Shown here: positions 9,959-21,537 of the stretch, in pieces
How the letters are laid out: every line of letters begins with the position of its first letter
Position numbering within the stretch: position 1 is the stretch's first letter
Program-made: the position numbers and the translations under genes
From: a virus
Length of the DNA: 64,000 bases
Direction: 5' to 3' (one strand)
IMG/VR virus record: IMGVR_UViG_3300032053_011398
The notes under the pieces: model-generated
Told to the model about the DNA's origin: nothing
The model's database searches: none
What the model saw: only the letters and a program-made list of their open reading frames with translations

Positions 9959-10032
9959 TGGCTGCCGAAGAAGGAGTTGCACCCTCACGAACTGGTTCAG
10001 AGCCAGCCATGCTGCTGTTACATCATTCGGCA
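9959..10032 (-). tRNA. tRNA-Gln(CTG)
   Basis: Cloverleaf, loop ctCTGaa, encoded CCA. Confidence 0.85.
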
Positions 10033-10056
10033 AAGATAAAAGCCGGATACACGAGC

Positions 10057-10512
10057 CTACCGGCATTCCACTGACTCTGCTCGTAGAGCTGCAACGATTG
10101 CTCGTTGCACGGTGGGATCAACCGACCATTCGAGCACGATCTGAGAGAACGTGATCGGCTGATCCCGCCGCCCAAGAATTATGGCGTCCTTGGTGACGGT
10201 GGTGTTTTCCGCTGTAAACGATTTGTGACGGCCACGCAAGCTTAGCTTGCGGCAGTTGGGATACGATGTGTTAAACAAAACGTATCCATTCTTGACGCGA
10301 AAACCCTTTGAGGAAACAGCGTAAGACCGCCAGTGCTCACCTCCGCCGTTGTCAAAATGGAAGACGATGAAATCACCGGCCCGCAAAAAACGGGTGTTCC
10401 TGACCATCATTCCCATAAACACGTGCTCGTGCTTGCATGGGAAATTATCCAACGCATAGCCCAACGTCCGATCCAATTGCTGCTCCGGCGTCAAATAGGT
10501 TTTCTGTCTCAC
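10057..10512 (-). CDS. Hypothetical protein
   Basis: 151-aa ORF. Confidence 0.55.
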   Translation of the reverse strand: MRQKTYLTPEQQLDRTLGYALDNFPCKHEHVFMGMMVRNTRFLRAGDFIVFHFDNGGGEHWRSYAVSSKGFRVKNGYVLFNTSYPNCRKLSLRGRHKSFTAENTTVTKDAIILGRRDQPITFSQIVLEWSVDPTVQRAIVAALRAESVECR

Positions 10513-10513
10513 A

Positions 10514-10550
10514 ATTAAAGAGTGCGGGCCGCTAGCACGCGACCCGCACC
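10514..10550 (-). terminator. Putative terminator closing the permuted tRNA-like RNA
   Basis: GTGCGGG/CCCGCAC stem then TCTTTAATT. Confidence 0.5.
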
Positions 10551-10574
10551 AGTTTTCAACGAAGCCTTTTAGCT

Positions 10575-10845
10575 TTGGCCGTCAGTAAACCCGGTGTCGT
10601 CAGCCTAATTCTGATGCTCTACCCCTGAGCTACAGGGCAGTGATTGGACTAACGAAATGCACTGCGAAATTGGCTGCCCCGGTGGGATTTGAACCCACGA
10701 CCTCAGTTTAATTGGACACCGCCTACTCACGACCCTTTCGTTGGTGGATGAGCCTTCGGGTAATAACCTAAGCCGTTAGCCTGAACTTTGAGCATTACCC
10801 TGAGCCTGGACAAGGCTTTCGCTTGCGCTACTCGCCCTACCCGAA
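10575..10845 (-). ncRNA. Permuted tRNA-mimic ncRNA (T-arm, acceptor 3' strand with CCA, spacer, acceptor 5' strand, D-arm) on a long closing helix, preceded by short AGGCT-like repeats
   Basis: GTGGG-TTCAAAT-CCCAC-CGGGGCA-G-CCA (~10706-10671) precedes TGCCCTG-TA-GCTC-AGGGGTA-GAGC (10639-10616); flanks pair CTGA/TCAG, CGGTGTC/GACACCG, GGTCGT/ACGGCC. Confidence 0.75.
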
Positions 10846-10849
10846 ATCG

Positions 10850-11611
10850 TTAAATCTTGCCGTCGAACACGAAGCTCAGAACCTTGTTGCCCAGCTTCTT
10901 GTTGTGATCGACCTCTGCGTCGTTCGCACGGGAACGCGCACGCTTGAATGCCCGAACGAGCATTTCAGCCCGGTCCAGCATTTCCGCCTTGTGGGCGACG
11001 GTGATGAGGCTCGTCCATTCCTGCTCGGCCACGGTGCCGATGGGGACATCGACGTTCATCAGGTCAGCCTGTCCGGGGTGCTCCTTGGTCGGAGCAAACT
11101 TGACCACGATCTTCACGTCCTTCTTGGTGCGGGTCTTGGTCACGTCGCGGGCCTTGAAGTAGCCCTCGCCGCGCTGCGTGTCAGGCTGGAAGCCCTTGGC
11201 CGGATCGAGCGTGGGAATCGCCGCCACAAGCTGCTGAATCTCAGCGGCCCGCTTCTCCAGCTCCAGGAGGGCCGTGACGGGCACGCCCATCAGGAGCACG
11301 GTGCCAGCGTCGTCTTCGAGGATCACGTCGGCGCGGGCCTTGGTGTTCGTCTCGGCGACCTGGTAACTGGCGTCGAGCGCCTTCTGGAGCTTTTCCTTGA
11401 TCCAGTCCAGCTCTTTGTGGACGGTGGTCTGGATGTCGCAGATGACCTTGGTGCTCGCCTGCTCGGTTTCCACGCAGGGCGTGAAGACCTCTTTCTTTTC
11501 CTCGAAGTGATGGCGCTTCTTCGTGAAGGTTTCCACCAGATCGGTGCGGCATTTCGTGGCCTGGTTCTCCAGGTTCGTCTCCGCCGCAAGGAGTTCATGT
11601 AGTTTTGTCAT
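10850..11611 (-). CDS. Conserved hypothetical protein (recalled as DUF7873-like; unverified) directly upstream of the permuted RNA
   Basis: MTKLHELLA, ARADV, VPVTALLELEK, RTKK, PTKEHPGQ, KRARSRAN; start MTK chosen from an SD-like GAAAGG. Confidence 0.75.
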   Translation of the reverse strand: MTKLHELLAAETNLENQATKCRTDLVETFTKKRHHFEEKKEVFTPCVETEQASTKVICDIQTTVHKELDWIKEKLQKALDASYQVAETNTKARADVILEDDAGTVLLMGVPVTALLELEKRAAEIQQLVAAIPTLDPAKGFQPDTQRGEGYFKARDVTKTRTKKDVKIVVKFAPTKEHPGQADLMNVDVPIGTVAEQEWTSLITVAHKAEMLDRAEMLVRAFKRARSRANDAEVDHNKKLGNKVLSFVFDGKI

Positions 11612-11709
11612 TGTCGTCTTGCCTTTCTCCCGCACTAACCACAGAAGAACGTAACGGATCGGCCAGACCCATGCAATATAATTCGTAAACTATTTTACGT
11701 TCATCAAAA

Positions 11710-11784
11710 TGGCTCCCCCGGCAGGTTCCGCCCCTGCAACCGTCTGCTTCAAAGGCAGCCGCGCCACTGTTACGCCACGGGGGA
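11710..11784 (-). tRNA. tRNA-Gln(TTG)
   Basis: Loop ctTTGaa, CCA. Confidence 0.8.
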
Positions 11785-11790
11785 ATAAAT

Positions 11791-11866
11791 TGGTGCCCCC
11801 GCCCGGAATCTCACCGGGAACCCTCCGGTTAAAGGCCGGATGCTCTGGACGTTGAGCTACGGAGGC
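11791..11866 (-). tRNA. tRNA-Lys(TTT), C33 variant
   Basis: Loop ccTTTaa, CCA. Confidence 0.8.
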
Positions 11867-11870
11867 GAAA

Positions 11871-11955
11871 TGGTGCCAGCCGGGGGACTTGCACCCCCAA
11901 GGCTCACAGGCTCTCGACCTGTGGGGTCTGCTAATTCCCGCTTAACCAGGCTGGC
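11871..11955 (-). tRNA. tRNA-Leu(GAG), atypical (large D-loop, no long variable arm)
   Basis: Loop tcGAGag, A73-CCA. Confidence 0.7.
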
Positions 11956-12472
11956 GTCTTCCGCAACGATATGCAACTTGCGGAATTTCACTTTCAAAAT
12001 GGGCACCCGAAAGATTTGGCAGTAAGACCTCAAAGCGTTTGGTCTGCGGCGGCACCGGAGGTTTTTCCGGGTTGTTGGCTTCGTAGCGGTCAACAGCCTC
12101 CTTGGCGATTTGTTCCAGCTCGGCGCACGTCTTCTTCAGCTCCTCGATTTCGGCTTCCAGCTCGGATCGGCTTTTCTTCTTTTCGGCTTTGAGTTTTGCC
12201 CTGTCCGGCACCACCGCTGTCACGTCCCATAGCGCGGCGGTGAAGCCGGTGATGCTACAAATGCGCTCACCAACAACTTCGATCACACCCATTTTCTCCA
12301 GTTCGGAAGGGCGATTTCGCACGCTGTCGATCTGGTATTGGGGCATCTTTTGCGCGATTTCACCAGCCGTGAGCGGCCCGCCATTGTAGATGTGGTTGTA
12401 AACTTCTAGTTGTATGCCGCCCAGGATGCCCTGAATTTTGGCGAAAGCTTCGGCACTGGTCTTGCGTGTCAT
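11942..12472 (-). CDS. Winged-HTH plus coiled-coil hypothetical protein
   Basis: PLTAGEIA...SVRNRPSELEKMGVI; CGTTCT 7 nt upstream. Confidence 0.7.
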   Translation of the reverse strand: MTRKTSAEAFAKIQGILGGIQLEVYNHIYNGGPLTAGEIAQKMPQYQIDSVRNRPSELEKMGVIEVVGERICSITGFTAALWDVTAVVPDRAKLKAEKKKSRSELEAEIEELKKTCAELEQIAKEAVDRYEANNPEKPPVPPQTKRFEVLLPNLSGAHFESEIPQVAYRCGRRQPG

Positions 12473-12485
12473 GCCCGATAGAACG

Positions 12486-12560
12486 TGGTTGGCCCGACCG
12501 GTAACGACCCGGTGACCTGACGATTATGAGTCGCCTGCTCTACGTCTGAGCTACGGGCCA
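12486..12560 (-). tRNA. tRNA with CAT anticodon (probably Ile2, possibly Met)
   Basis: Loop ctCATaa, GGCCC-type acceptor. Confidence 0.75.
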
Positions 12561-12571
12561 ATCGCTAAATA

Positions 12572-12661
12572 TGGCGGAAGGCGGAGGGCATCATCCTCAC
12601 CCCAGTTAAGGGGCCATCGGTTTAGCAAACCGTGACGGCCAAGCCAGCCGCTTCACCTTCC
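12572..12661 (-). tRNA. tRNA-Ser(GCT)
   Basis: Loop ttGCTaa, long variable arm, G73-CCA. Confidence 0.8.
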
Positions 12662-12722
12662 GAAATCCCAATTACTAATTCGGTATAAATTGGTAGCAAA
12701 TTAGTAATTGCGCCCCAAGGCG

Positions 12723-13283
12723 CTAGTTGGTGCCGCCGGTTTTGACGGTGCCTTCCTCGCCGCCAAAATCCACTGTGCCTGGCCCAGACTTGCTGATCTG
12801 AAATCCATCGAACCTGGCCTCGCCCTTCTTCATATCCGTGGTGTCCCAGTGGGGCACCAGGCGATAGCCGGACATGGCGTAGAGCACGCCGTTGAGCAGA
12901 TCGAGGGCGCTAAGCGTAAATTGGTTACCACTGCCCGTCTGGATAGCCCCAGGCAGGATCGTGCCACTTTGAGCCATCTGCTCGTTAGTTTGGACGCGGT
13001 TGTTGATGAGCAGCCACATGCCGACCGGATCACGTTGAACGGCATCATTGAGCACGGCCTCGGCCAGCTCGATGTCCGTCTCCAGGAAGCGCACCACCCC
13101 AGTCTCGGCGACCTGGAGGCGATAGACCTCACTGCCATCAACAATGCAGATGACCCGGCTGCCTAAGAGCACCTTATCGGCTTTGATGCCCAAGGCATCG
13201 GCAATTTGGTTCCGGGTTTCATCGGTGACGGGCGCGAATTTTTTGGCCTCAATGACCTCAGCGATTCTTTCTTTATCCAACAT
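12723..13283 (-). CDS. Hypothetical protein (likely start MLDKE) downstream of the second permuted RNA
   Basis: The longer predicted start overlaps the RNA helix. Confidence 0.65.
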   Translation of the reverse strand: MLDKERIAEVIEAKKFAPVTDETRNQIADALGIKADKVLLGSRVICIVDGSEVYRLQVAETGVVRFLETDIELAEAVLNDAVQRDPVGMWLLINNRVQTNEQMAQSGTILPGAIQTGSGNQFTLSALDLLNGVLYAMSGYRLVPHWDTTDMKKGEARFDGFQISKSGPGTVDFGGEEGTVKTGGTN

Positions 13284-13342
13284 AAGCTTGTAGTTTTTCC
13301 AATGGTTCTCGATGCGCGAGCAATTCATACTGACCGCAAACT

Positions 13343-13495
13343 GATGCGCGACAAGCGCGGGCAAGGGTTTGCGCCAAAGACCCCCTTCAGGGAGACCGCT
13401 GCTCTACCAGGCTGAGATACGTGCCCTTTCAAGGCTGGATTTGAACCAGCGACCAACGGTTCTCAGACGCATTTAACCCGCGCATGTCGCGCACC
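13343..13495 (-). ncRNA. Second permuted tRNA-mimic (YrlA/Y-RNA-like) with a closed acceptor region
   Basis: GCTGG-TTCAAAT-CCAGC, then a short linker/hairpin, then D-arm-like TCTC-AGCCTGGTA-GAGC; terminal helix GGTGCGCGACA-T-GCGCGGG / CCCGCGC-T-TGTCGCGCATC. Confidence 0.7.
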
Positions 13496-13594
13496 AAAAA
13501 GGATGAGCATCGGTGCTGAGAATGAAAGACTGCCCTGCCCCGCACTGACCACAGGCTTTTGAACAGAACGACTTTGCAGCACCGGTGCCCAAGA

Positions 13595-14026
13595 TGGTGG
13601 AGCTGGCGGGGAGTTGAACCCCGCGTCTTTGACATGATCCGACGCACATCCACATGCTTCTTCCGGTCAAACCGATTGCAACAGATTAGGCAGGCCCATG
13701 ACCGGATAAACTCTGGCCTGTGCTGCATTTTGCTGAACCTTTATTAAACAGGGCTTCAGAACCCCTGTTTTACCTGCTGGTTACGCCCACACCCCGTAGC
13801 AGGTGTCAAAGGGTGGACGGTCTGGCGCATTAGGCCAGAACAGGTTCGGCATAGCCCGTGCGAGCCAGAACTTCGTCAGGGTTGGCGAAGATCGCAGCAA
13901 CCTGGGCCAGCAAACCGTCTTCATTGCTTTTGGCAGATGATTTTTGATGGAGAGATTATCGTGGCCGACCATCATCCACGGCATGTCGTAACGGCTTCAC
14001 GTATCAAATCGAAGCCCGGCAGCCCC
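13595..14026 (-). ncRNA. ssrA: tmRNA, tag (A)AKSNEDGLLAQVAAIFANPDEVLARTGYAEPVLA*
   Basis: 5' GGGGCTG, 3' GACGCGGGGTTCAACTCCCCGCCAGCTCCACCA with G3-U70; tag ORF 13934-13830. Confidence 0.92.
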
Positions 14027-14028
14027 AA

Positions 14029-14042
14029 ATTTTCAAAGATCA
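14029..14042 (-). promoter_or_regulatory. boxA-like element TGATCTTTGAAAA just upstream of tmRNA
   Basis: Resembles the rrn boxA consensus. Confidence 0.45.
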
Positions 14043-14045
14043 AAA

Positions 14046-14144
14046 TGGCTAAAGTGTTCCGCCGCCCATGGTGGGGCGGCGGAAGGGGAGAACCGGATTC
14101 GGTTCGCCGTCCACCAGTCGGTCATGCGGGCCGACACGCCCCTA
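14046..14144 (-). ncRNA. Unknown multi-hairpin RNA ending in CCA
   Basis: Three GC-rich hairpins, CCA plus T-rich trailer like neighbouring tRNAs. Confidence 0.4.
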
Positions 14145-14147
14145 AAT

Positions 14148-14226
14148 TGGCGTCAGCCGGTCTGTTTTCACACGCCAGGGGGTTTTCGAGTGGCATCCTG
14201 ACTGTGCTGCCATCATTCCGGCTGAC
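14148..14226 (-). ncRNA. Unknown RNA with a 9-bp acceptor-like stem and G-CCA end
   Basis: GTCAGCCGG...CCGGCTGAC-G-CCA-ATTT. Confidence 0.5.
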
Positions 14227-14240
14227 ATTAAATCAAAAAT

Positions 14241-14317
14241 TGGTTGCGGGGGCTGGATTTGAACCAGCGGCCTTCAGGTTATGGGCCTGATGAGCTACCA
14301 GGCTGCTCCACCCCGCG
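14241..14317 (-). tRNA. tRNA-fMet(CAT)
   Basis: C1xA72 mismatch, CGCGGGG, canonical TTCAAAT T-loop. Confidence 0.92.
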
Positions 14318-14412
14318 ATCCAGTTCAAAGAACGGTTATTTAAACTACGCAGCCACTTTACAACGGCACCCAGGGGGAGTCAACAACTTTGTAAACTTTT
14401 CTGCGTAAAAAT

Positions 14413-14496
14413 TGGTCGGCAGGAGGAGACTTGCACTCCCAAGGCTCAGCGTGTTTGAGGCGCTGGGGTCTGCTATTCCCTCTAAACCACCTGCCG
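14413..14496 (-). tRNA. tRNA-Leu(CAA), atypical
   Basis: Loop ctCAAac, large D-loop, short variable region. Confidence 0.72.
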
Positions 14497-14512
14497 AAAT
14501 AGCGCACGCCCC

Positions 14513-14588
14513 GTCGCGGTCAGCGGGACTCGCACCCGCAACTTCTGGTTTCTGAAACCAGCGACTCTGCTGATTGGCCTATCCCGGC
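14513..14588 (-). pseudogene. Degenerate tRNA-Leu(CAG)
   Basis: D, anticodon (ttCAGaa) and T arms present; acceptor 3' strand does not pair and there is no CCA. Confidence 0.6.
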
Positions 14589-14592
14589 AAAT

Positions 14593-14670
14593 TGGTAGCG
14601 GCGACAGGATTTGCACCTGCACTGTCTTCGCTCTAAACGAAGTGCCTCCTGCTGGTTGGGCTACGCCGCC
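14593..14670 (-). tRNA. tRNA-Leu(TAG), short variable loop
   Basis: Loop ttTAGag, A73-CCA. Confidence 0.78.
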
Positions 14671-14677
14671 GTCTAAA

Positions 14678-14761
14678 TGGTGCCAAGCCAGGGACTTGCA
14701 CCCTGAAGGCTCCGACGTTTTAAGGATCGGGGGTCTGCTATTCCCGCTTAACCAGCCTGGC
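14678..14761 (-). tRNA. tRNA-Leu(TAA), atypical
   Basis: Loop ctTAAaa, weak anticodon stem, large D-loop. Confidence 0.65.
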
Positions 14762-14892
14762 TACACTGCGGGCCAGACGACGACCCTTGACGAACCGATT
14801 GTCGTCCAGGTTGTGCGCCTGCCAAGATGAGCTTCCCGCATTTTGGCCTTCGTTTCTTCGGAGTGCTGTCGGCCTATCCACCACTTTGGCAT
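14761..14892 (-). CDS. 43-aa NUMOD3-motif mini-protein or homing endonuclease remnant
   Basis: MPKWWIGRQHSEETKAKMREAHLGRR...; too short for the supplied ORF track. Confidence 0.55.
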   Translation of the reverse strand: MPKWWIGRQHSEETKAKMREAHLGRRTTWTTIGSSRVVVWPAV

Positions 14893-14935
14893 AAACTTCC
14901 GTCAATAGTGAGCCACTGCTTCACACTGTAGATAC

Positions 14936-15011
14936 TGGTGCCCCAGGGGAGACTCCCACTCCCAACCAGCGGTTCCGAGGACCGCCGCGCTGATAATTGC
15001 GCCACTGAGGC
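14936..15011 (-). tRNA. tRNA-Arg(TCG)
   Basis: Loop ccTCGga, CCA. Confidence 0.78.
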
Positions 15012-15031
15012 GAAAGTGTTCTTAAGTAGGC

Positions 15032-15679
15032 ATGAGCAAAGAGAATCTTGAATGGGTCATGGAGCAGGCCAAACCTGCTGACCTTGAAATCGCTCACGAA
15101 GCCTGGTTCCGCTACCGGGAAATCGTAGGAAGAGTTGCCCAAAAACATGGATATTCGCTAGAAGTGGGCGTCGGCGTCTTCTCCTCTTTAAGTCCAAATT
15201 CGGATTACCTGGGCAATCTCCGGGACACGGTCCGGCTCCTGGCCGCAGCGCACGCGGGCGACCCCATCGAGAGCTTCCCGGTCTCAACCTACGGAAACAA
15301 CAAGCGGAAAGCCTGGCGGATCGCCCACGGCGAAAATCCGCTCGATTTGATCGTCTCCCCCAAAACCCGCAACTTCTTCCTGAACATCATCGACCCTGCC
15401 GATCCCGGCCCGGTGACCGTGGACGGGCACATCTTCAATGCCTGGACAGGGGTGCGCCTCCCGCTGGTTTCAGCCGCGCAGAAACTCCGGGCGGGTTTCT
15501 ACGACGACGTAGCTCAGGACATCCGGCAGATCGGGGCCGAACGCCGGTTGATTCCCAACATCGTTCAGGGCATCATCTGGTATTCGTGGAAGCGGCTGCA
15601 TAGGATCAAGCGCAGCGATCAGCTTGAGTTCTGGAAACCGGACTTTACGGCGGCGGCGCTGGGCTACGAACGAGAGTAA
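15032..15679 (+). CDS. Conserved phage protein, HhH-GPD glycosylase-like (recalled as DUF7178-like)
   Basis: WF...SSLSP...PKTRNF...VTVDGH...VQGIIW. Confidence 0.6.
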   Translation: MSKENLEWVMEQAKPADLEIAHEAWFRYREIVGRVAQKHGYSLEVGVGVFSSLSPNSDYLGNLRDTVRLLAAAHAGDPIESFPVSTYGNNKRKAWRIAHGENPLDLIVSPKTRNFFLNIIDPADPGPVTVDGHIFNAWTGVRLPLVSAAQKLRAGFYDDVAQDIRQIGAERRLIPNIVQGIIWYSWKRLHRIKRSDQLEFWKPDFTAAALGYERE

Positions 15680-15750
15680 CTAGAAATATGAGTGATTTGA
15701 ACAAACCTAATCCATCCCTCTGAGCCTGGAGCAGAACAATAAAAACAAAT

Positions 15751-16506
15751 ATGGCTGAACCTCAAACTACACTAATCACTGTTTTTCACAATGGAATTCA
15801 TGCTCTTAAACTGCTGTGGAGGAGCTTTTCTAACGCTAACCCCGAACCCGCGCTATTTTGGTGCTACGACAATGCCAGCAACGACGGATCAGGATACTAC
15901 GCTAAATCTGTTTCCAACTATACGTTCAGGTCTTGCTGTAACTATGGCCACGGACGGGGCTTAGACACGCTATGTGCTAAGGTCCGCACGCCTTACACGC
16001 TCATCGCTGACGTTGATGTCGAATTTCTTCAACCAGCCACAGCAAGAATGATCGCAGAACTAAAAGGAACACCGTCAGCTCTCTGCACGGCTTATCCATC
16101 ACTGAAAGAGGAATGTGTTGTCGTCAATAATTACTTAGGATCAAATTTATCTGGACAAAAGCGCATAAACCCTTGCTGCGCTATGTTTGACACGCTCAAG
16201 CTGCAACAGGTACTAAAATACTTCAGTTTCGGAGTTTATGGGGGACCGGGTAAGTTTTACGACGTTGGAGCTATGATATACACGGCCAGTTTAGCGTGCA
16301 ATCTATCTGTCCTAGAACCAACCTGGATCAGGCAAGCGGTGCGGCACTACGGCGGCATCGGCGGCTATGTCTCCGGCGCATTTCCTAAAGACAGCCCAAA
16401 GTTCATAGCATCACAAAAAGCGTATAGCCTCATAGAGCAACGAGCAGCGAGCTACGCTGAACCCGGTCGAAAATTGAACGAGGCTATTTTTGAACTAGAA
16501 GCATAG
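15751..16506 (+). CDS. GT2-like glycosyltransferase
   Basis: YDNASNDGS, NYGHGRGLD, ADVDV. Confidence 0.8.
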   Translation: MAEPQTTLITVFHNGIHALKLLWRSFSNANPEPALFWCYDNASNDGSGYYAKSVSNYTFRSCCNYGHGRGLDTLCAKVRTPYTLIADVDVEFLQPATARMIAELKGTPSALCTAYPSLKEECVVVNNYLGSNLSGQKRINPCCAMFDTLKLQQVLKYFSFGVYGGPGKFYDVGAMIYTASLACNLSVLEPTWIRQAVRHYGGIGGYVSGAFPKDSPKFIASQKAYSLIEQRAASYAEPGRKLNEAIFELEA

Positions 16507-16510
16507 AACT

Positions 16511-17008
16511 ATGGACTTAAACAAAATACCCAGTGCGTGGAAAAACTTAGACAACTTCGCTTTCTGGTTAGTAGCCGCTTTCAAACCTGACGTTATTGTC
16601 GATTTGGGGGTTGACCACGGCTATTCAACGATAGTCCTGGCCATGCCGGGCATAGGCACTGTTTACGGCATAGACGCGGTGATGTGCCGTGCCGAGCCTT
16701 TCATAGCAGAAGCCAACCTTAAAAACATCATTCTGATTAAAGGAGACTTTTCCACTTTAGCTTCAACTTGGGCGCAGCCAATAGACATCCTGCACATTGA
16801 CGGCAACCACGATTATGAAAGCGTGCAGAGAGACTTCACCGTCTGGTCCCCTTTCGTTAGAAAGGGCGGAATCATTCTCTTACACGACACAATATCGTTC
16901 CCTGATGGACCAGGACGTGTTTTTTCGGACGTAACTTGGCCAAAATTCAACATCGACAAGACGCGGCAGCAAACATGCGGACTCGGAGTTATTCTTAAAA
17001 CGCAGTAG
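16511..17008 (+). CDS. SAM methyltransferase (Methyltransf_24-like)
   Basis: VDLGVDHGYS, IDILHIDGNHDYESV, GGIILLHD. Confidence 0.85.
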   Translation: MDLNKIPSAWKNLDNFAFWLVAAFKPDVIVDLGVDHGYSTIVLAMPGIGTVYGIDAVMCRAEPFIAEANLKNIILIKGDFSTLASTWAQPIDILHIDGNHDYESVQRDFTVWSPFVRKGGIILLHDTISFPDGPGRVFSDVTWPKFNIDKTRQQTCGLGVILKTQ

Positions 17009-17070
17009 TCGCCAGCAGTCAGAGCGTGAAGGACCGAACAGGTTCAGGCAAAAATCTCTGAAACACATGC

Positions 17071-18063
17071 CTAGCCCATCAGTTCTTCGGCGTAAGCGCA
17101 CAAAACCTTGACTTCAAAACTTCCGTAAAGGTTACTGGGCACCCTACAGGGCCGATAAGGCAGCTTAAGAAGCTGGGCGGCTACGCGGGCTGGATCGGCG
17201 CTGGTTTTGTAGATTACACTCAAGGGATCGCCCGGTTTATAGTCCAGAGGTATAGGCGTGTAGTCGATGGGTATGTCGATGACGACACCACCGATTTCTT
17301 GGGCGTGCTCCACGCAGCTTGGACTGCCCGACGCGACAGCAACCAGGCAACCCGCCGCCGCCGCTTCGGACATGAGCCGTGAGTGCCCCTCCACGGCGGA
17401 TGGATAGAAGAACACCTTCGATTGACCCAGCAAGGACCAAAGTTCAGCTTTAGACTTGCCTGAAATGTTCTGTGGGGCGATGCCGCCTTGCCGCCTGGCC
17501 TCCTCCAACACCAATCCCGCAAACCAATCACCCTTGGCTGGCGAACAGGATGCCGTAGCCACGTCGTAAATCCTCTCGCCGTGATAGTGCTGGATCGCTT
17601 CCACGTTCACGCCCGAAGGCAGCCATTCGACTCGGCGACAGTAGGGCGCGAAGTAGCGCACGTCACTAGCGGCGGCGGTCAGCAACAAATCTATCTGGCT
17701 CAAACAGTTGATACGATCCGCTGTCCACAGTTCCGGCCCAAACCCTCGAACTCTCCACGCTATCTGCCTGGCTTTCCACCCGCCCGACTTTAAACACTTC
17801 AAGCCAATGTCAGGCCAACTGCTAAACAAAATCAAATCCGCAGTAACCGATGGATACTCTCCCTTTACGCAAATGAACTCAACGCCATCTTGCACGGTAT
17901 TTCGAGAGAGGTCATAAGTGCCGAGCACTGCAATTACCCGGTGACCTCGCCGAGCCATTTCTTTAGCGAACGTGATCGGTGTAAACGCATATTCGTCAAA
18001 AGCGTTCACGGCTAACCAAGTTTCTAATAGGTTGGGATAGCGACATTCCACTACGATTGTCAT
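17071..18063 (-). CDS. GT-B (GT4-like) glycosyltransferase
   Basis: LPSGVN, FFYPSAVEGHSRLMSEAAAAGC. Confidence 0.78.
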   Translation of the reverse strand: MTIVVECRYPNLLETWLAVNAFDEYAFTPITFAKEMARRGHRVIAVLGTYDLSRNTVQDGVEFICVKGEYPSVTADLILFSSWPDIGLKCLKSGGWKARQIAWRVRGFGPELWTADRINCLSQIDLLLTAAASDVRYFAPYCRRVEWLPSGVNVEAIQHYHGERIYDVATASCSPAKGDWFAGLVLEEARRQGGIAPQNISGKSKAELWSLLGQSKVFFYPSAVEGHSRLMSEAAAAGCLVAVASGSPSCVEHAQEIGGVVIDIPIDYTPIPLDYKPGDPLSVIYKTSADPARVAAQLLKLPYRPCRVPSNLYGSFEVKVLCAYAEELMG

Positions 18064-18157
18064 CTCCCCGTAGAACGTGAAGACGTTAGCTAAATTGTGT
18101 AAACTTTTTCATTCCGTTCTAAAACGTCGTGGTTAACGCGGGCGCGATAGTTACAGC

Positions 18158-18517
18158 GTGAAAGTTGCAGGTCAAGAGATCGAAGTTCAAACCGAGCGGT
18201 ATCACGGCGGCTGGATGAGCGTGGCCTGCCTGCCGGACGGCAAGCAGATTGCCTCGGCCCCGTGGAACACCCGCGAGGCCGCTGAGCACGACGTGTATCA
18301 GCAAGCTTTGATGCGCCTGGCCCCCATGCCCGCCTTCGATCCGGGCAAGACCTACGAAGCAGCCCTGATCCAGCGCCGGGCGGACGCCCTGCTGGAGCAC
18401 TGCGGCTACTGCGCCCGCCGCCCACCGCGCCGCCGCAAGCGTCTGCCCCCGCCCAAAGCTTCGTTCTACCCCGGCAGTGGCGGATCAGCCGGAATCGGAG
18501 GGCTTTCAAATGCCTGA
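18158..18517 (+). CDS. Hypothetical protein; C-terminus reads through repeat copy 1
   Basis: GTG start 4 nt after ATAGTTA. Confidence 0.5.
   Translation: MKVAGQEIEVQTERYHGGWMSVACLPDGKQIASAPWNTREAAEHDVYQQALMRLAPMPAFDPGKTYEAALIQRRADALLEHCGYCARRPPRRRKRLPPPKASFYPGSGGSAGIGGLSNA
18450..18515. repeat. 66-bp direct repeat, copy 1 (structured)
   Basis: 63/66 identical to 19553-19618. Confidence 0.9.
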
Positions 18518-18525
18518 AAAATGAG

Positions 18526-18597
18526 TGGAGCCGAAAGCCGGTGCTGCCCCGGCCTGGTCAAGTTTACAAAACTCGTCCCTTCGCTGGAAGCTTCGGC
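18526..18597 (-). tRNA. tRNA-Thr(TGT), reduced D-arm
   Basis: Loop ttTGTaa, GCC acceptor start, CCA. Confidence 0.7.
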
Positions 18598-18602
18598 AAA
18601 AT

Positions 18603-18678
18603 TGGTGGGTTCGATGGGCGACGATCCCACAACATCCTGATTAAGAGTCAGGTGCTCTACCAATTGAGCTACGAACCC
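18603..18678 (-). tRNA. tRNA-Lys(CTT)
   Basis: Loop ctCTTaa, CCA. Confidence 0.9.
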
Positions 18679-18682
18679 AAAA

Positions 18683-18757
18683 TGGTCGCTGTGCCCGGAC
18701 TCGCACCGGGAACCGTCACCTTATGAGGATGCCGCGCTGCTATTGCGCCACACAGCG
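18683..18757 (-). tRNA. tRNA-Met(CAT), probably elongator
   Basis: Loop ctCATaa, CCA. Confidence 0.78.
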
Positions 18758-18762
18758 GAAAA

Positions 18763-18840
18763 TGGAGCCTCCACCCGGACGTGCGCCGAGCTATCGCCCA
18801 TACCAAGGGCGTGCATCGCTGCTGCCTATGCTTTGGAGGC
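18763..18840 (-). tRNA. tRNA-Thr(GGT)
   Basis: Loop ttGGTat, CCA. Confidence 0.78.
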
Positions 18841-18841
18841 G

Positions 18842-18915
18842 TGGAGCGAGTGACCGGAATCGCACCGGTATCTGATGCTTGGAAGACACCAGCTCTACTA
18901 TTGAGCTACACTCGC
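18842..18915 (-). tRNA. tRNA-Gly(TCC)
   Basis: GCG acceptor start, loop ctTCCaa, U73-CCA. Confidence 0.85.
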
Positions 18916-18923
18916 GCTGAAAA

Positions 18924-19271
18924 TTAAGTCCACGAAGTCTGCATTTCGGCAGCCTTCGGCGGGATGGCTGCCTTGATCTGTTCGCGGGCCTTCTCGCGCT
19001 CCTTGCGCCAGGCTTCCCATTCCTCGAAAGAGGGCACTGAATCGAGGATTTCGTCGCCAGGGCGCAGAAACGTGTGCGACCATTCGCCCCTGGCATTCGG
19101 GTATCCAATCGAATGAAGAATGCCTTTGCCATAATCACGTGCGTCGTAGTAGCCGTTCCACTCGGCCTGGACGACCCCTTGCGGCGTGCGGACACGGACG
19201 ACCCGGCGGGCCATGTCGGGCAGATCGTCTTCCAAAAGCATCTTCACGATGAGCTGTGCCATTCTACTCAT
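18924..19271 (-). CDS. Hypothetical protein with N-terminal LLEDD motif
   Basis: Start MSRMAQ 7 nt after GTAGTTA. Confidence 0.6.
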   Translation of the reverse strand: MSRMAQLIVKMLLEDDLPDMARRVVRVRTPQGVVQAEWNGYYDARDYGKGILHSIGYPNARGEWSHTFLRPGDEILDSVPSFEEWEAWRKEREKAREQIKAAIPPKAAEMQTSWT

Positions 19272-19292
19272 ATCGGCATAACTACGAGAAAC

Positions 19293-19367
19293 TGGAGTCC
19301 GGCCAGGGGATCGCACCCTGCACCACCGCTTTGCAGGCGGGGCCGTTCGCTAGCTCGGTCGCCGGAC
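19293..19367 (-). tRNA. tRNA-Cys(GCA)
   Basis: Loop ctGCAaa, U73-CCA. Confidence 0.82.
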
Positions 19368-19376
19368 GCGAGAAAT

Positions 19377-19453
19377 TGGGGCCAGTAGGCGGACTCGCAC
19401 CGCCGAATACCGGTTTACGAAACCGGCCCTGTAGCTGCTGGAGGCATACTGGC
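19377..19453 (-). tRNA. tRNA-Thr(CGT)
   Basis: Loop ttCGTaa, CCA. Confidence 0.8.
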
Positions 19454-19458
19454 AAAAG

Positions 19459-19532
19459 TGGTAGGGGATAACGGTGCCGCCCCGCTGCCTCGTCGGTGTA
19501 AACGACGCACGCTGCTGTTACGCCAATCCCCC
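19459..19532 (-). tRNA. tRNA-Val(TAC)
   Basis: Loop ttTACac, CCA. Confidence 0.8.
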
Positions 19533-19552
19533 ACTCCGAAAACAGTTGTTCT

Positions 19553-19618
19553 CGCCCAAGGCTTCGTTCTACCCCGGCAGCGGTGGATCAGCCGGAATCG
19601 GAGGGCTTTCAAATGCCT
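19553..19618. repeat. 66-bp direct repeat, copy 2
   Basis: 63/66 identical to 18450-18515. Confidence 0.9.
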
Positions 19619-19690
19619 AAGTTCATCCTTCCAAAAATGTAAACTTTTTAATTCCGTTCTATAACATTGTGGTCAGTGCGGGTTGAAATT

Positions 19691-20452
19691 ATGAGTGAAC
19701 CGTTCAAGGCGCAAGTCGAAAAGTTCTTCCTGGAACATGTGCTCCACGAACCCCCACACTGCTATAATCCGTTCGTGACCATGCACTGCCAGCGTTACGT
19801 CCACTCCGTGCTGTTCGCTGAGTTGGAACTGAAAGCGGCCAAGGTGGTCCTGGAAGTGGGCGGCGGATGGGGGGCGTTTACGGAGGGCTTGCGGGCCTTG
19901 TTTCCCAGCCTGGTGATCGAAGGCTCCTCCGCTGATCTCCGCACGGTCTTCACCAACAAGGTGGACTACTATGACTTCATCCTGAACATGGAAGTCATCG
20001 AGCACATAAAAGACCTTGAAATTCCGGGAGATTGGCGTCAGCGGGATGCCTACATCGGTGACGGCCTGAAAAATTTTGTAAACACTTGCTACCAATGCCT
20101 GAAACCGGACGGCAAGATGTTCCTGACCACGCCAAATCTCAGCTCCGTTAAAAGTCTCTGGCGGGTAATGAATTACAGCGACCCGTTCTCCTATGAGATG
20201 CACTTCCGCGAGTTTTCGATGAACGACCTGTTGAGAATACTGGTCGAAGCCGGGTTCCAGATCGAACGCTATACGACCATGCAGTGCTACGAGCAAAACC
20301 AGGTTCCGCCCGAAGCCAAGGCCCGCATTCTAAGCTTTTTGCGGGAGATGAAACTGTCCACAAACAACCGCGAAGAAGTCCAGTTCGTCATGGCCGTCAA
20401 GTCCGCAGTTAAGATGGCTGCGGTTTCCCAAGGTCCAGTGAACTCCCCGTAA
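19691..20452 (+). CDS. Class I SAM methyltransferase (likely start MSEPF)
   Basis: VLEVGGGWG, EVIEHI, LKPDGKMFLTTPN, HFREFS. Confidence 0.85.
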   Translation: MSEPFKAQVEKFFLEHVLHEPPHCYNPFVTMHCQRYVHSVLFAELELKAAKVVLEVGGGWGAFTEGLRALFPSLVIEGSSADLRTVFTNKVDYYDFILNMEVIEHIKDLEIPGDWRQRDAYIGDGLKNFVNTCYQCLKPDGKMFLTTPNLSSVKSLWRVMNYSDPFSYEMHFREFSMNDLLRILVEAGFQIERYTTMQCYEQNQVPPEAKARILSFLREMKLSTNNREEVQFVMAVKSAVKMAAVSQGPVNSP

Positions 20453-20468
20453 ATTAGTTCTGGCCACT

Positions 20469-21206
20469 ATGCTGACCATCGGAATTTTGAACTGTCACCG
20501 CCAAGCCAATGTCGTTAAGCTGGTCAAGCGTTACTCTGCCATGCCCCTCGTTTCGCGGATCACCGTCTGGAGCAGTCCGCCCGGCGACTTCCGCATCACC
20601 GACAATCCAAAGGTTTTGACGGCTACCTGTGCGCCGGATTGGGGCATGTATGCCCGCTTTCAGTCGGTGCTCAACGCGCCCACGGAGTGGATCATGACGG
20701 TCGATGACGATCTATTCGTCCCGGAGGAGTCGATCAAAACGATGCTCGACGCCCGGATGAAGGACAAGGACAAAATGGTCAGCGGCATGTTCGGCAGACG
20801 GCCTTCCAGAACTCAAGAGTTTGCCGTGTTCCATGATATTGAAGACACGGTGTGCGAAATCGTCGTAGGCCGCGTTATGGTGTTTCACGTCAGCCTGATT
20901 AGCCGCTTCTTCGACGTGGTGCGGAATCCGAAGTGGGAAGAACTCTACGCCCAGGGGCGTCAAGCGGGCTGGAGCAAGACCACCAACATCGAAGACATCA
21001 TCATGAGCTATGTGGCAATGCAGACCGCTCCCGGCAGGCTCAACCAGATTCACAAATTGGGTTGCCAGGAACTAGATGCCCCATTCCCGGTTTGGACGAT
21101 GCGGAATTTCTTTAAGTATCGCCAGGCGGGCATGACCTTCACCCAGCAGTTCTTCAACAACTGGTCGCATAGCGAACACCCCACCGGATACGGGTTAAGG
21201 CGCTGA
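20469..21206 (+). CDS. GT-A glycosyltransferase (GT64/GT2-like)
   Basis: ARF, IMTVDDD, EDIIMS. Confidence 0.7.
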   Translation: MLTIGILNCHRQANVVKLVKRYSAMPLVSRITVWSSPPGDFRITDNPKVLTATCAPDWGMYARFQSVLNAPTEWIMTVDDDLFVPEESIKTMLDARMKDKDKMVSGMFGRRPSRTQEFAVFHDIEDTVCEIVVGRVMVFHVSLISRFFDVVRNPKWEELYAQGRQAGWSKTTNIEDIIMSYVAMQTAPGRLNQIHKLGCQELDAPFPVWTMRNFFKYRQAGMTFTQQFFNNWSHSEHPTGYGLRR

Positions 21207-21208
21207 AA

Positions 21209-21288
21209 TGGCGCTCCCACCAGGATTCGCACCTGGAGCCTTCTCCTTCGCAGGGAGATGTGCAGATTACTAATTACACCTTGGGAGC
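21209..21288 (-). tRNA. tRNA-Arg(GCG)
   Basis: Loop ctGCGaa, CCA. Confidence 0.8.
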
Positions 21289-21295
21289 TTCAAAA

Positions 21296-21372
21296 TGGTG
21301 CTCACGGCAAGAATTGCACTTGCAACCTGCGGTTTCGGAGACCGCCGCTCTATCTACTTGAGCTACGCGAGC
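21296..21372 (-). tRNA. tRNA-Arg(CCG)
   Basis: Loop ctCCGaa, CCA. Confidence 0.85.
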
Positions 21373-21376
21373 AAAA

Positions 21377-21453
21377 TGGCAGCCCAGACGGGTTCCGCCC
21401 CCGTGATCTCCTGTGTGAAAAACAGGCGTGTTGACTAGCTACACTACTGGGCC
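21377..21453 (-). tRNA. tRNA-Glu(TTC)
   Basis: Loop ttTTCac, CCA. Confidence 0.82.
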
Positions 21454-21458
21454 AAAAT

Positions 21459-21537
21459 TGGTGTTCGTGGACGGACTCGCACCGTCTAATTATCCAGTAT
21501 GAGAGACTGGCCGCTCGGCTACTTCGCGCTCACGAAC
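21459..21537 (-). tRNA. tRNA-Glu(CTC), overlapped by the 3' end of the HNH ORF
   Basis: Loop ctCTCat, CCA. Confidence 0.75.

What the first reader, a model, noticed from the sequence alone, without database searches (positions are those of the whole stretch)
10514..11655. Candidate RNP system: conserved protein gene followed by a permuted tRNA-mimic RNA that keeps an internal CCA
Seen: on the minus strand the order is CGTTCT motif, 253-aa ORF, short-repeat tract, T-arm (canonical TTCAAAT) plus acceptor 3' strand CGGGGCA-G-CCA, a 31-nt spacer, acceptor 5' strand TGCCCTG plus D-arm, then a terminator-like hairpin. The tRNA halves are therefore in reversed order. The anticodon arm is replaced by a long irregular helix (CTGA/TCAG, CGGTGTC/GACACCG, AGTAGG/TTTACT, GGTCGT/ACGGCC). 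Known: T-acceptor-D order on a long stem is the architecture of bacterial YrlA Y RNAs, which partner Ro60/TROVE; removal of an acceptor spacer is how two-piece tmRNAs mature. No TROVE gene is visible in this window, and the CCA is followed by the same ATTT trailer as the real tRNAs. Inference: the RNA may be processed into a two-piece, anticodon-less, possibly chargeable tRNA mimic that binds the adjacent protein, for example as a decoy for tRNA-targeting defences or a scaffold for RNA repair/decay.
Basis: partly seen in the sequence, partly recalled or inferred. Interest (0 to 1): 0.88.

Follow-up and report, generated by a model that had tools for sequence, protein, structure and literature searches.

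The report
Phage tRNA-mimic RNA beside DUF7873
A large phage carries a gene of unknown function (DUF7873) followed by a folded RNA of about 340 bases whose core is a tRNA with its halves in swapped order, no anticodon loop and a built-in CCA; the same gene-RNA pair recurs in hundreds of phages and bacteria, mostly without Ro60, and I found it in no paper I could search.

Summary
On the minus strand a 253-aa ORF (Pfam DUF7873, E 5e-56) is followed by a ~340-nt RNA. Its core reads T-arm, 7-nt acceptor 3' strand, G-CCA, 31-nt A/U-rich spacer, matching acceptor 5' strand, D-arm. This core sits on a long bulged helix and the RNA ends in a terminator.

- **Closest known family:** Rfam YrlA, matched below threshold (38 bits; cut-off 69).
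- **Gene-RNA pairing:** a covariance model built here finds the module just downstream of DUF7873 in 90 of 93 phage loci. It also finds it in 80 of 80 actinobacterial loci that were not used to build the model.
- **Structure:** all 20 base pairs covary.
- **CCA:** 59 of 73 phage modules encode CCA.
- **Ro60 (TROVE):** present in only 8 of 30 carrier phages and absent from this window.
- **DUF7873:** no known relative by fold or sequence; predicted to form a homodimer.

Most likely this is a Ro60-independent, Y-RNA-like RNA-protein cassette. Its RNA is probably cut by tRNA-processing enzymes into two paired pieces with a free CCA end. Protein binding, processing and function are inferred. Charging is unlikely.

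This scan found the same pair before on other DNA. I found no published description.

The parts
10850..11611 (-). DUF7873 protein gene (253 aa), predicted homodimer of unknown fold
   Evidence: Pfam PF25283 E 5.2e-56, 190 bits against a cut-off of 27. AlphaFold2 model pLDDT 95.4. No PDB, Atlas, PHROG, NCBIfam or PADLOC relative. Homodimer score 0.75 against best control 0.00.
10808..10842 (-). 5' hairpin directly after the stop codon (GGGTAGGGC...GCCTTGTCC); no U-tract follows, so read-through from the gene is likely
   Evidence: MFE fold. A hairpin at the same place in 18 clade members. No terminator called between the gene and the RNA.
10749..10807 (-). Hexamer-repeat tract (AGGCTCA, GCTCAA, AGGCTAA, GGCTTAG, AGGCTCA), partly displayed in the loop of hairpin GGGTAAT/ATTACCC (10800-10758)
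   Evidence: Sequence. The 5-mers GCTCA, AGGCT, CTCAG, GGCTC and AGACT are enriched (z 10-19) in the non-tRNA-like parts of 69 homologous RNAs. Aligned repeats in clade members.
10715..10734 (-). 5' strand of the long bulged helix that replaces the anticodon arm (GGTCGTGAGTAGGCGGTGTC); preceded by AACGAAAGG
   Evidence: MFE fold pairs it with 10577-10598.
10703..10706 (-). 3' strand of the anticodon-stem equivalent (CTGA); GGTC 10702-10699 takes the place of the variable loop
   Evidence: Pairs with TCAG 10614-10611. All 4 pairs covary in 60 sequences. 84.6% of cells are paired against 38-48% when the partner is slid. This helix was not used to select the sequences.
10682..10698 (-). T-arm, 5 bp with canonical TTCAAAT loop
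   Evidence: 5 of 5 pairs covary.
10671..10681 (-). Acceptor 3' strand CGGGGCA, discriminator G, encoded CCA
   Evidence: CCA in 59 of 73 phage modules; discriminator C 23, T 19, A 17, G 14.
10640..10670 (-). 31-nt spacer starting ATTT; the likely excised segment
   Evidence: Spacers are 2-79 nt long and 67% A+T across the family. The trailer matches that of the window's 27 tRNAs.
10633..10639 (-). Acceptor 5' strand TGCCCTG; predicted RNase P site at 10640/10639
   Evidence: 7 of 7 acceptor pairs covary. The RNase P site is an inference from PMC4201824.
10616..10630 (-). D-arm GCTCAGGGGTAGAGC
10577..10614 (-). TCAG (anticodon-stem equivalent), conserved internal-loop motif AATTAGGCTGA (family consensus GAUYARRYUNA), then the 3' strand of the long helix
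   Evidence: Alignments A3 and A4; fold.
10511..10576 (-). 3' tail: AAAGCTAAAAGGC motif, then a 12-bp G+C-rich hairpin (10550-10521) with a conserved apical CGCGTG-CTA-GCGG, then a T-rich tail; likely the terminator
   Evidence: Terminator scan. Same motif and hairpin in clade members.

Best explanation
The locus is one cassette: the DUF7873 gene plus a dedicated ~340-nt non-coding RNA. It belongs to a very widespread gene-RNA pair in phages and bacteria that I could not find in print.

The RNA is built on the plan of bacterial YrlA Y RNAs. It has a tRNA body (T-arm, acceptor stem, D-arm, variable-loop and anticodon-stem equivalents) written in circularly permuted order and mounted on a long bulged helix. 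It also carries a track of AGGCUCA-like hexamers.

The window has the phage form, with one head. The acceptor stem is a true 7-bp stem followed by N-CCA and an A/U-rich spacer.

Proposed steps (all inferred):
1. The RNA is transcribed with or just after the gene.
2. The host's tRNA-processing enzymes cut it. RNase P cuts at 10640/10639, and the 3' side is trimmed back to CCA at 10671.
3. The two pieces stay paired and present a tRNA-like acceptor end.
4. A DUF7873 homodimer binds the RNA.
5. The particle works without Ro60, in tRNA or RNA surveillance or protection during infection.

Shown here: the structure, its covariation, the gene-RNA linkage and its independence from Ro60.
For: 1. **RNA family and structure.**
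   - Rfam YrlA is the only meaningful match (38.3 bits).
   - Sub-threshold YrlA matches lie 200-400 nt downstream of DUF7873 in 8 of 12 isolate-phage loci.
   - RNAalifold on 29 clade members gives 20 pairs, all with compensatory changes.
   - On 60 sequences, 96.3% of cells are paired against 61% in shuffles and 38-48% when partners are slid. The covariation score is 0.92 against 0.23.
2. **Linkage.**
   - Model R1 scores 43 bits or more on the same strand just downstream of the gene in 90 of 93 phage loci.
   - It does the same in 80 of 80 actinobacterial chromosomal loci that were not used to build it.
   - In five near-complete phage genomes, the best R1 match is always the one beside the single DUF7873 gene.
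3. **Ro60 independence.**
   - TROVE is present in 8 of 30 carrier phage records: 2 of 13 records at least 90% complete, and 1 of 5 isolates.
   - TROVE is absent from the window.
   - Where TROVE occurs, it has its own separate adjacent YrlA-like RNA.
4. **Processing signals.** One search shows CCA in 59 of 73 modules, U at -1 in 37 of 73, A/U-rich spacers, and the same CCA-ATTT trailer as all 27 tRNAs of the window. The precedent is M. smegmatis YrlA (PMC4201824).
5. **Protein.** The family holds 1905 clusters at 50% identity, all about 250 aa. The predicted symmetric homodimer scores 0.75 against a best control of 0.00. That mark was reached by 20 of 30 proteins solved as pairs of one chain and by 1 of 23 solved as single chains. 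The three runs agree in at least 97% of contacts, and pLDDT is at least 89.
6. **Repeats.** The reiterated hexamers are strongly enriched.
Against: - There are no transcript, end-mapping, binding or phenotype data.
- The protein is near neutral (pI 6.7, family median 6.75) and has no recognisable RNA-binding domain. Physical binding therefore rests on synteny alone.
- The bacterial versions are mostly loop-capped and lack CCA. A free CCA end is not part of the core mechanism, and in phages the CCA could partly reflect exchange with neighbouring tRNA genes.
- In several distant phage members the spacer pairs with the CCA (CCAAC...GTTGG), which could keep the acceptor closed.
- TROVE is enriched near the cassette when it is present, 0.1 to 19 kb away and once contiguous. 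A functional tie to Ro60 in some phages is therefore not excluded.
- Only 64 kb of this phage was available, so a TROVE gene may lie elsewhere in its genome.
- An earlier later-check within this scan put the odds of the 'protein binds RNA, Ro-independent unit' reading at 22 in 100.
Confidence: 0.5

Rival explanations
1. It is an ordinary Ro60-dependent Y RNA. The RNA is the partner of a Ro60/TROVE protein encoded elsewhere in this phage or in its host. DUF7873 is merely a neighbour or an accessory factor of the Ro60 particle.
For: - The best Rfam match is YrlA.
- TROVE occurs in 8 of 30 carrier phages, far more often than the 'small subset' of jumbo phages reported to carry it (PMC7824862).
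- When present it lies 0.1-19 kb from the cassette, and in L021 TROVE, DUF7873 and the RNA are contiguous on one strand.
- A CGAAAG string resembling the Ro-binding motif GNCGAAN0-1G precedes the long helix at 10739-10734.
- Only 64 kb of the genome was seen.
Against: - 11 of 13 near-complete IMG/VR carrier genomes and 4 of 5 complete isolate genomes lack TROVE.
- Phages that have TROVE also carry a separate, TROVE-adjacent YrlA-like RNA, which is loop-capped in 3 of 4 cases.
- Linkage of the RNA to DUF7873 is 170 of 173 loci, much tighter than its linkage to TROVE.
- The score is well below the YrlA gathering cut-off.
Confidence: 0.15
2. It is a cis-acting 3' untranslated element of the DUF7873 mRNA, not a trans-acting partner RNA. 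A tRNA-like structure would give RNase P and 3' exonucleases a defined stop. This would release and stabilise the mRNA from long tRNA-array transcripts, as mascRNA does for MALAT1 and as plant-virus tRNA-like ends do.
For: - The order is always gene then RNA on the same strand, with a short fixed distance and no terminator in between.
- The cassette often lies inside tRNA arrays: 38 of 69 IMG/VR loci have a tRNA within 1.5 kb.
- After an RNase P cut, the mRNA-side fragment would end in a paired CCA.
Against: - An mRNA end-protecting element does not need 340 nt, a hexamer track, two heads in most lineages, or a conserved internal loop and apical motifs.
- The bacterial versions are loop-capped, so they offer no RNase P site in the acceptor loop.
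- The Klebsiella phage FBKp24 record annotates a predicted promoter between the gene and the RNA.
Confidence: 0.15
3. It is a stand-alone decoy. The processed CCA-ended tRNA mimic soaks up a host tRNA-directed defence enzyme or toxin that reads the elbow and acceptor end. DUF7873 would have a different or merely supportive job.
For: - The CCA-bearing form is typical of phages, not of the bacterial copies.
- The RNA keeps a canonical T-loop and D-loop.
- It sits among phage tRNA genes.
Against: - No defence or anti-defence family matched the protein.
- The same RNA-protein pair is a conserved chromosomal feature of hundreds of actinobacteria, which fits a housekeeping or stress role better than a phage-only counter-defence.
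- Nothing here tests any target.
Confidence: 0.1
4. It is debris or a different known RNA: remnants of two decayed tRNA genes, a phage attachment-site copy of a tRNA 3' end, a permuted true tRNA gene, or a second (two-piece) tmRNA.
For: - Junctions of adjacent tRNAs in the window give weak matches to model R1 at 19-31 bits.
- Betaproteobacterial two-piece tmRNA models match the T-arm-acceptor-CCA part weakly in some loci.
Against: - The two halves are complementary in the acceptor stem, with compensatory changes at all 7 pairs across 60 sequences. Junctions of unrelated tRNAs would not show this.
- The true modules score 43-91 bits.
- There is no anticodon loop. The D-arm is canonical, unlike that of tmRNA.
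- G3:U70 occurs in only 2 of 73 modules.
- No tmRNA_permuted match was found in the window region.
- The phage already has a standard tmRNA at 13595-14026.
Confidence: 0.02

Closest known systems
YrlA (Y RNA-like A; Rfam RF02553) with Ro60/Rsr, especially the Mycobacterium smegmatis form (Chen et al. 2014, PMC4201824)
   Same: - A permuted tRNA-like module (T-arm, acceptor stem, D-arm) mounted on a helix formed by the RNA's own 5' and 3' parts.
- The RNA is encoded next to the gene of its presumed protein partner.
- M. smegmatis YrlA has a 7-bp acceptor stem, is cut by RNase P in the acceptor loop, and carries CCA in vivo. It therefore exists as two paired pieces.
   Different: - It scores 38 bits against a gathering cut-off of 69.
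- The adjacent gene is DUF7873, not TROVE. Most carrier phages have no TROVE at all.
- The CCA is encoded in the gene, not added afterwards.
- The RNA is about three times longer and carries a hexamer-repeat track.
- The GNCGAAN0-1G Ro-binding motif is not clearly present.
DUF7873-associated tRNA-mimic RNA, as noted earlier by this scan on other DNA (for example e1-2703945, e1-5696806, e1-5652427); not found in print
   Same: - Same protein family and same gene-then-RNA order.
- Same permuted tRNA-like core and hexamer repeats, and mostly no Ro60.
- The single-head, CCA-encoding form was noted before in other phages.
   Different: - Most members, including all 80 actinobacterial loci tested here, have two heads with loop-capped acceptors. 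This window has one head with CCA and a 31-nt spacer.
- These are unreviewed notes, not literature.
Two-piece (circularly permuted) tmRNA of alpha- and betaproteobacteria and cyanobacteria
   Same: - Gene order is T-arm, acceptor 3' strand, CCA, intervening segment, acceptor 5' strand.
- Maturation removes the intervening segment and leaves two paired pieces.
   Different: - It has a canonical D-arm and no tag reading frame.
- It has no G3:U70 alanine identity pair and no pseudoknots.
- It does not match the tmRNA_permuted model.
- The phage has a normal one-piece tmRNA 3 kb away.
Circularly permuted tRNA genes (Cyanidioschyzon merolae type)
   Same: The 3' half of the tRNA is encoded upstream of the 5' half.
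   Different: - There is no anticodon loop. The anticodon stem continues into a long open helix.
- No bulge-helix-bulge splice motif is expected in bacteria.
- It cannot decode.

Membership tests
YrlA / bacterial Y RNA (Rfam RF02553) | Reaches the Rfam gathering score (69 bits) | tested here: not met
   38.3 bits at window 10588-10722 (-), E 6e-7 for a 501-nt search. No match at gathering threshold in the whole window.
YrlA / bacterial Y RNA (Rfam RF02553) | tRNA-like module in the order T-arm, acceptor stem, D-arm, closed by a helix made of the RNA's 5' and 3' parts | tested here: met
YrlA / bacterial Y RNA (Rfam RF02553) | Ro60-binding motif GNCGAAN0-1G in the 5' strand of the terminal helix | tested here: inconclusive
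   AACGAAAGG at 10742-10734 lacks the first G and lies just outside the helix. The position is A-rich but poorly conserved in the clade.
YrlA / bacterial Y RNA (Rfam RF02553) | Encoded beside a Ro60/TROVE gene | tested here: not met
   No TROVE in the 64-kb window, by Pfam on the ten largest ORFs and by tblastn with four phage TROVE proteins (best E 0.4). The rest of the genome is unseen.
YrlA / bacterial Y RNA (Rfam RF02553) | Bound by Ro60 in vivo | not testable with these tools
   Needs immunoprecipitation.
Pfam DUF7873 (PF25283) | Full-length match above the curated cut-off | tested here: met
   190.5 bits against 27; residues 1-250 on profile positions 1-243 of 244.
DUF7873-associated tRNA-mimic RNA (unpublished; this scan) | Permuted tRNA-like module on the same strand within a few hundred nt downstream of a DUF7873 gene | tested here: met
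   R1 gives 86 bits at 10598-10712 (-), starting 138 nt after the stop.
DUF7873-associated tRNA-mimic RNA (unpublished; this scan) | Two tandem tRNA-like heads | tested here: not met
   One head only in the window and in most of its clade. Between the stop codon and the head lies a hexamer-repeat hairpin in place of a first head.
DUF7873-associated tRNA-mimic RNA (unpublished; this scan) | Reiterated hexamer motif outside the tRNA-like core | tested here: met
   Seven copies of the RGCUNA type in the window RNA. Family-wide enrichment z 10-19.
Two-piece tmRNA | Match to a tmRNA covariance model, a tag reading frame, and G3:U70 | tested here: not met
   Only 12 bits, on the T-loop alone. C3-G70 in the window. 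G3:U70 in 2 of 73 modules.
Permuted tRNA gene | A complete anticodon stem-loop after joining the ends | tested here: not met
   The 4-bp anticodon-stem equivalent runs into a ~20-bp bulged helix with open ends. ARAGORN calls no tRNA here.

The most novel reading that the evidence does not exclude
This would be a second, Ro60-independent class of tRNA-mimic ribonucleoprotein, shared by bacteria and phages.

- A homodimer of a protein with no recognised fold would grip a hexamer-repeat track and the tRNA-like heads of its own downstream RNA.
- In phages, the head would have been turned into a real substrate of RNase P and the 3'-end trimming enzymes.
- The particle would therefore display a free, tRNA-like CCA acceptor end without an anticodon.
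- It would use that end to engage, or divert, enzymes that act on tRNA ends during infection.
Probability: 0.3. Interest if true: 0.85.

Novelty: new variant of a known kind. Interest (0 to 1): 0.72.

Why it matters
Y RNAs are known only as partners of Ro60, and what their tRNA-like domain is for remains an open question.

Here a YrlA-like tRNA mimic is tied to a different protein with no recognised fold. The tie holds in 170 of 173 loci tested, in phages of at least six host groups and in hundreds of actinobacterial chromosomes, and usually without Ro60.

If the pair is a particle, tRNA mimicry is a more general way of building bacterial and phage RNA-protein machines than the Ro60 system suggests.

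The phage form has an encoded CCA and tRNA-type processing signals. That gives a simple experimental handle, end mapping and pull-down, on what the tRNA-like end does.

It also assigns a concrete, testable context to a large family of unknown function: 1905 clusters at 50% identity.

Tried and rejected
- **Phage DNA search.** Megablast of the locus against 50,697 phage records found no match. The window's phage has no close sequenced relative.
- **Whole genome.** None is held for the window.
- **Fold searches with the pLDDT-95 model.**
  - Foldseek against the PDB gave nothing at E <= 0.001.
  - VIA-align wide gave a best Z of 9.1 on a designed helical protein. The other matches were generic helical ones, within the range that tool reports for unrelated helical models.
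  - The ESM Atlas returned only DUF7873 itself.
- **Sequence and profile searches.** A profile search of PDB sequences gave nothing meaningful. PHROGs, NCBIfam and PADLOC gave no match.
- **Fused forms.** A search for longer forms of the protein found none. This is weak evidence.
- **Literature.** Full-text searches for DUF7873 and PF25283 returned 0 papers. Searches for YrlA with phage and for permuted tRNA with phage returned nothing on this pair.
- **Bacterial genome scan.** The search for related loci on bacterial genomes failed with the broad alignments. It worked with a three-sequence actinophage alignment.
- **CGTTCT as a signal.** The hexamer alone is not enriched. The contexts of the intergenic copies show no clear common longer motif.
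- **Rejected readings.** Second tmRNA, true permuted tRNA, attachment-site remnant and two decayed tRNAs; see the rival explanations.
Full report
**What is in the window.**

The window is part of a large phage-like genome. It holds 27 tRNA genes and a one-piece tmRNA at 13595-14026. It also holds a family A DNA polymerase, an NAD-dependent ligase, an intein-bearing DnaB helicase and a baseplate J protein. No whole genome is held for it, and it has no close relative among sequenced phages.

- a 253-aa ORF (11611-10850);
- a T-arm with a TTCAAAT loop (10698-10682);
- acceptor 3' strand CGGGGCA, discriminator G and CCA (10681-10671);
- a 31-nt spacer (10670-10640);
- the complementary acceptor 5' strand TGCCCTG (10639-10633);
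- a canonical D-arm (10630-10616);
- a 12-bp G+C-rich hairpin with a T-rich tail (10550-10511).

**What the RNA resembles.**

At relaxed thresholds, the only meaningful Rfam match in the region is YrlA, the tRNA-like bacterial Y RNA. It scores 38.3 bits against a gathering score of 69. The difference is explained by a 36-nt insertion in the acceptor loop and a different basal helix. The tRNA model scores 14 bits and the tmRNA model 12 bits, the latter on the T-loop alone.

**The protein.**

The ORF is a full-length member of Pfam DUF7873 (E 5e-56). The family is large: 1905 clusters at 50% identity, nearly all about 250 aa.

With a 110-sequence alignment, AlphaFold2 gives a confident model (pLDDT 95.4). 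It consists of long helices plus a very long beta hairpin whose tip carries the conserved AT..HPAQ motif. I found no relative by any route:
- Foldseek on the PDB;
- VIA-align wide, where the best Z of 9.1 falls on generic helical matches;
- the ESM Atlas;
- a profile search of PDB sequences;
- PHROGs, NCBIfam and PADLOC;
- a search for longer fused forms.

The protein is near neutral (pI 6.7), with two local basic patches.

A homodimer prediction passes clearly. The score is 0.75 against a best control of 0.00. That mark was reached by 20 of 30 proteins solved as pairs of one chain and by 1 of 23 solved as single chains. The three runs agree in at least 97% of contacts, and pLDDT is at least 89. 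The model supports pairing but does not show it.

**The gene-RNA pair is conserved.**

tblastn finds the protein in 75 isolate-phage records, at 25-33% identity. Their hosts are Vibrio, Rhizobium, Gordonia, Klebsiella/Serratia, Arthrobacter, Ralstonia, Rhodococcus and two cyanobacteria. In all twelve regions I fetched, the gene is followed by roughly 300-700 nt with no convincing gene, only a few tiny annotated ORFs. Eight of the twelve give a sub-threshold YrlA match there, on the same strand.

IMG/VR holds 408 relatives, and I took the best 80. A strict script looks for a T-arm, a 7-nt strand, a complementary 7-nt strand within 90 nt, then a D-arm. It finds such a module downstream of 68 of 80 distinct loci. 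On the opposite strand it finds 0 of 80, and in shuffles 1 of 400.

I aligned 60 modules with MAFFT and built covariance model R1 from them. R1 gives 43-91 bits just downstream of the gene in 90 of 93 phage loci. The three exceptions are:
- one locus with a HEARO RNA and a large ORF inserted;
- one contig that ends 98 nt after the gene;
- one locus with a 36-bit match.

As an independent test I fetched 80 actinobacterial chromosomal loci, out of at least 578 relatives. None was used to build the model. All 80 have an R1 match on the same strand: 79 lie 170-370 nt after the gene and one (L145) about 1.2 kb downstream. Most have a second, weaker match before it.

In five near-complete phage genomes, the best R1 match is always the one beside the single DUF7873 gene.

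An earlier later-check in this scan (e1-2703945) reported a word-pattern test that found the RNA beside only 17.8% of genes, and a fold test that found it in 20 of 21. My model-based count, 170 of 173, agrees with the fold test.

**Covariation.**

On 29 clade members, RNAalifold predicts 20 pairs: 4 anticodon-stem equivalent, 5 T, 7 acceptor and 4 D. All 20 show compensatory changes.

On the 60-sequence MAFFT alignment:
- 96.3% of cells are standard pairs, against 61% in shuffles and 38-48% when partners are slid by 1-3 columns;
- 401 cells show a change on both sides, against 109 in shuffles.

One caveat applies. The T, acceptor and D stems were partly used to pick the sequences, so their pairing percentage is biased upward. 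The anticodon-stem equivalent was not used for selection. It is still 84.6% paired, and all four of its pairs covary. The 80 bacterial loci are a further independent confirmation.

**Features beyond the tRNA-like core.**

In the window's clade the RNA has a fixed plan:
1. a hairpin right after the stop codon;
2. a second hairpin (GGGUAAU/AUUACCC in the window) whose loop and flanks display three to six copies of a hexamer such as AGGCUCA;
3. the long helix bearing the tRNA-like head, with a conserved 3' internal loop (GAUYARRYUNA) that holds another copy of the hexamer;
4. an AAAGCUAAAAGGC motif;
5. a terminal hairpin with a conserved apical sequence.

The 5-mers GCTCA, AGGCT, CTCAG, GGCTC and AGACT are enriched, with z of 10-19, in the non-core parts of 69 RNAs. 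The hexamer resembles positions 9-15 of the D-arm itself (AGCUCAG). I cannot say whether that matters.

**The CCA and the two-piece idea.**

One search gives these counts across 73 phage modules:
- CCA follows the discriminator in 59.
- The discriminator varies freely (C 23, T 19, A 17, G 14).
- The 1-72 pair is G-C in 48.
- The base before the acceptor 5' strand is U in 37.
- Spacers are 2-79 nt long and 67% A+T.

In the window, the CCA is followed by ATTT. All 27 tRNAs of the window also encode CCA, and most are followed by ATTT or TTTT. The module therefore offers RNase P and the 3' trimming enzymes what a tRNA precursor offers.

There is a precedent. M. smegmatis YrlA has a 7-bp acceptor stem. 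RNase P cuts it in vitro and in vivo, and its 5' half carries CCA (PMC4201824).

Three observations count against a general role for a free CCA:
- The bacterial versions are mostly capped by a short loop such as GCTCGA and lack CCA.
- In some distant phage members the spacer pairs with the CCA.
- I have no end-mapping data.

Charging is unlikely. There is no anticodon, no conserved discriminator, and G3:U70 occurs in only 2 of 73 modules.

**Relation to Ro60.**

TROVE is absent from the window. Among 30 carrier phage records it is present in 8. That is 2 of the 13 IMG/VR records that are at least 90% complete, and 1 of 5 isolates.

When present, it lies 0.1-19 kb from the cassette. In one contig (L021) the TROVE gene, DUF7873 and the RNA are contiguous on one strand.

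In the four TROVE loci I examined, TROVE has its own adjacent YrlA-like RNA. Three of the four are loop-capped and lack CCA. Two separate protein-plus-tRNA-mimic units can therefore coexist. The DUF7873 unit is not simply the Ro60 unit. A functional relationship is possible where both occur.

**Conclusion and rivals.**

The best reading is a DUF7873 plus Y-RNA-like cassette that works without Ro60. In phages the head is probably matured like a tRNA into a two-piece, CCA-ended mimic (confidence 0.5 for the whole statement).

The structure, the linkage and the Ro60 independence are shown here. Transcription, cleavage, binding and function are inferred.

The rivals, with my odds, are:
- a Ro60-dependent Y RNA with DUF7873 as accessory (0.15);
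- a cis-acting 3' end element of the mRNA (0.15);
- a stand-alone decoy (0.1);
- debris, an attachment-site copy, a permuted true tRNA or a second tmRNA (0.02), refuted by covariation and the lack of defining features.

**Prior knowledge.**

I found no paper naming DUF7873 or PF25283, and none describing this pair.

This scan has noted the same pair many times on other DNA: 138 notes in at least 79 genomes. These include the single-head, CCA-encoding phage form. The window is therefore a further member of a recurring, apparently unpublished family, not a first sighting.

Noticed in passing
window 13385-13464 (-), within 13343-13570: A second permuted tRNA-like RNA lies next to the tmRNA. Model R1 gives 30 bits. 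It has a T-arm, a short loop-capped acceptor without CCA, and a D-arm, enclosed by a terminal helix of about 18 bp. This is the classical YrlA design, but no TROVE gene lies in the window.
   Followed up: partly
window 9959-29611 (-): All 27 tRNA genes encode their CCA, and most are followed by ATTT or TTTT. Rfam calls three further tRNAs that ARAGORN misses, at 21212-21288, 19462-19532 and 14515-14588.
   Followed up: partly
window 39286-41820 (+): A DnaB-type helicase gene is interrupted by an intein (Hint domain plus LAGLIDADG homing endonuclease).
   Followed up: no
L010 3276-3485 (Microcoleus phage My-WqHQDG, OR578707.1): A HEARO RNA (129 bits) and a 425-aa ORF sit directly downstream of the DUF7873 gene, where the tRNA-mimic RNA lies in other phages. 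This looks like an IscB/IS200-605-type insertion.
   Followed up: no
G003 (IMG/VR contig of L026) 42171-42604 (-): Two further permuted tRNA-like RNAs (R1 60.8 and 41.9 bits) lie 26 kb from the only DUF7873 gene, in a complete phage genome without TROVE. Such mimics therefore also occur away from both proteins.
   Followed up: no
L003/L012 3357-3448; L005 3310-3399; L006 3381-3492; L011 3359-3446: In two-headed phage RNAs, the first head has a long, leucine-type D-arm (GCGGAATTGGTAGACGC) and a very short spacer after ACCA. The second head has the common GCTCAG..GGTAGAGC D-arm.
   Followed up: partly
window 10521-10550 (-) and the same place in L016, L017, L026, L042, L048: The terminal, terminator-like hairpin has a conserved apical sequence (CGCGUG-NUA-GCGG). 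This is unusual for a plain intrinsic terminator.
   Followed up: no
window 11646-11651, 12480-12485, 13565-13570, 14329-14334, 18072-18077 (-): CGTTCT recurs just upstream of several minus-strand RNA or protein genes in the tRNA region. The hexamer is not enriched in the window as a whole, and I saw no clear longer consensus.
   Followed up: partly
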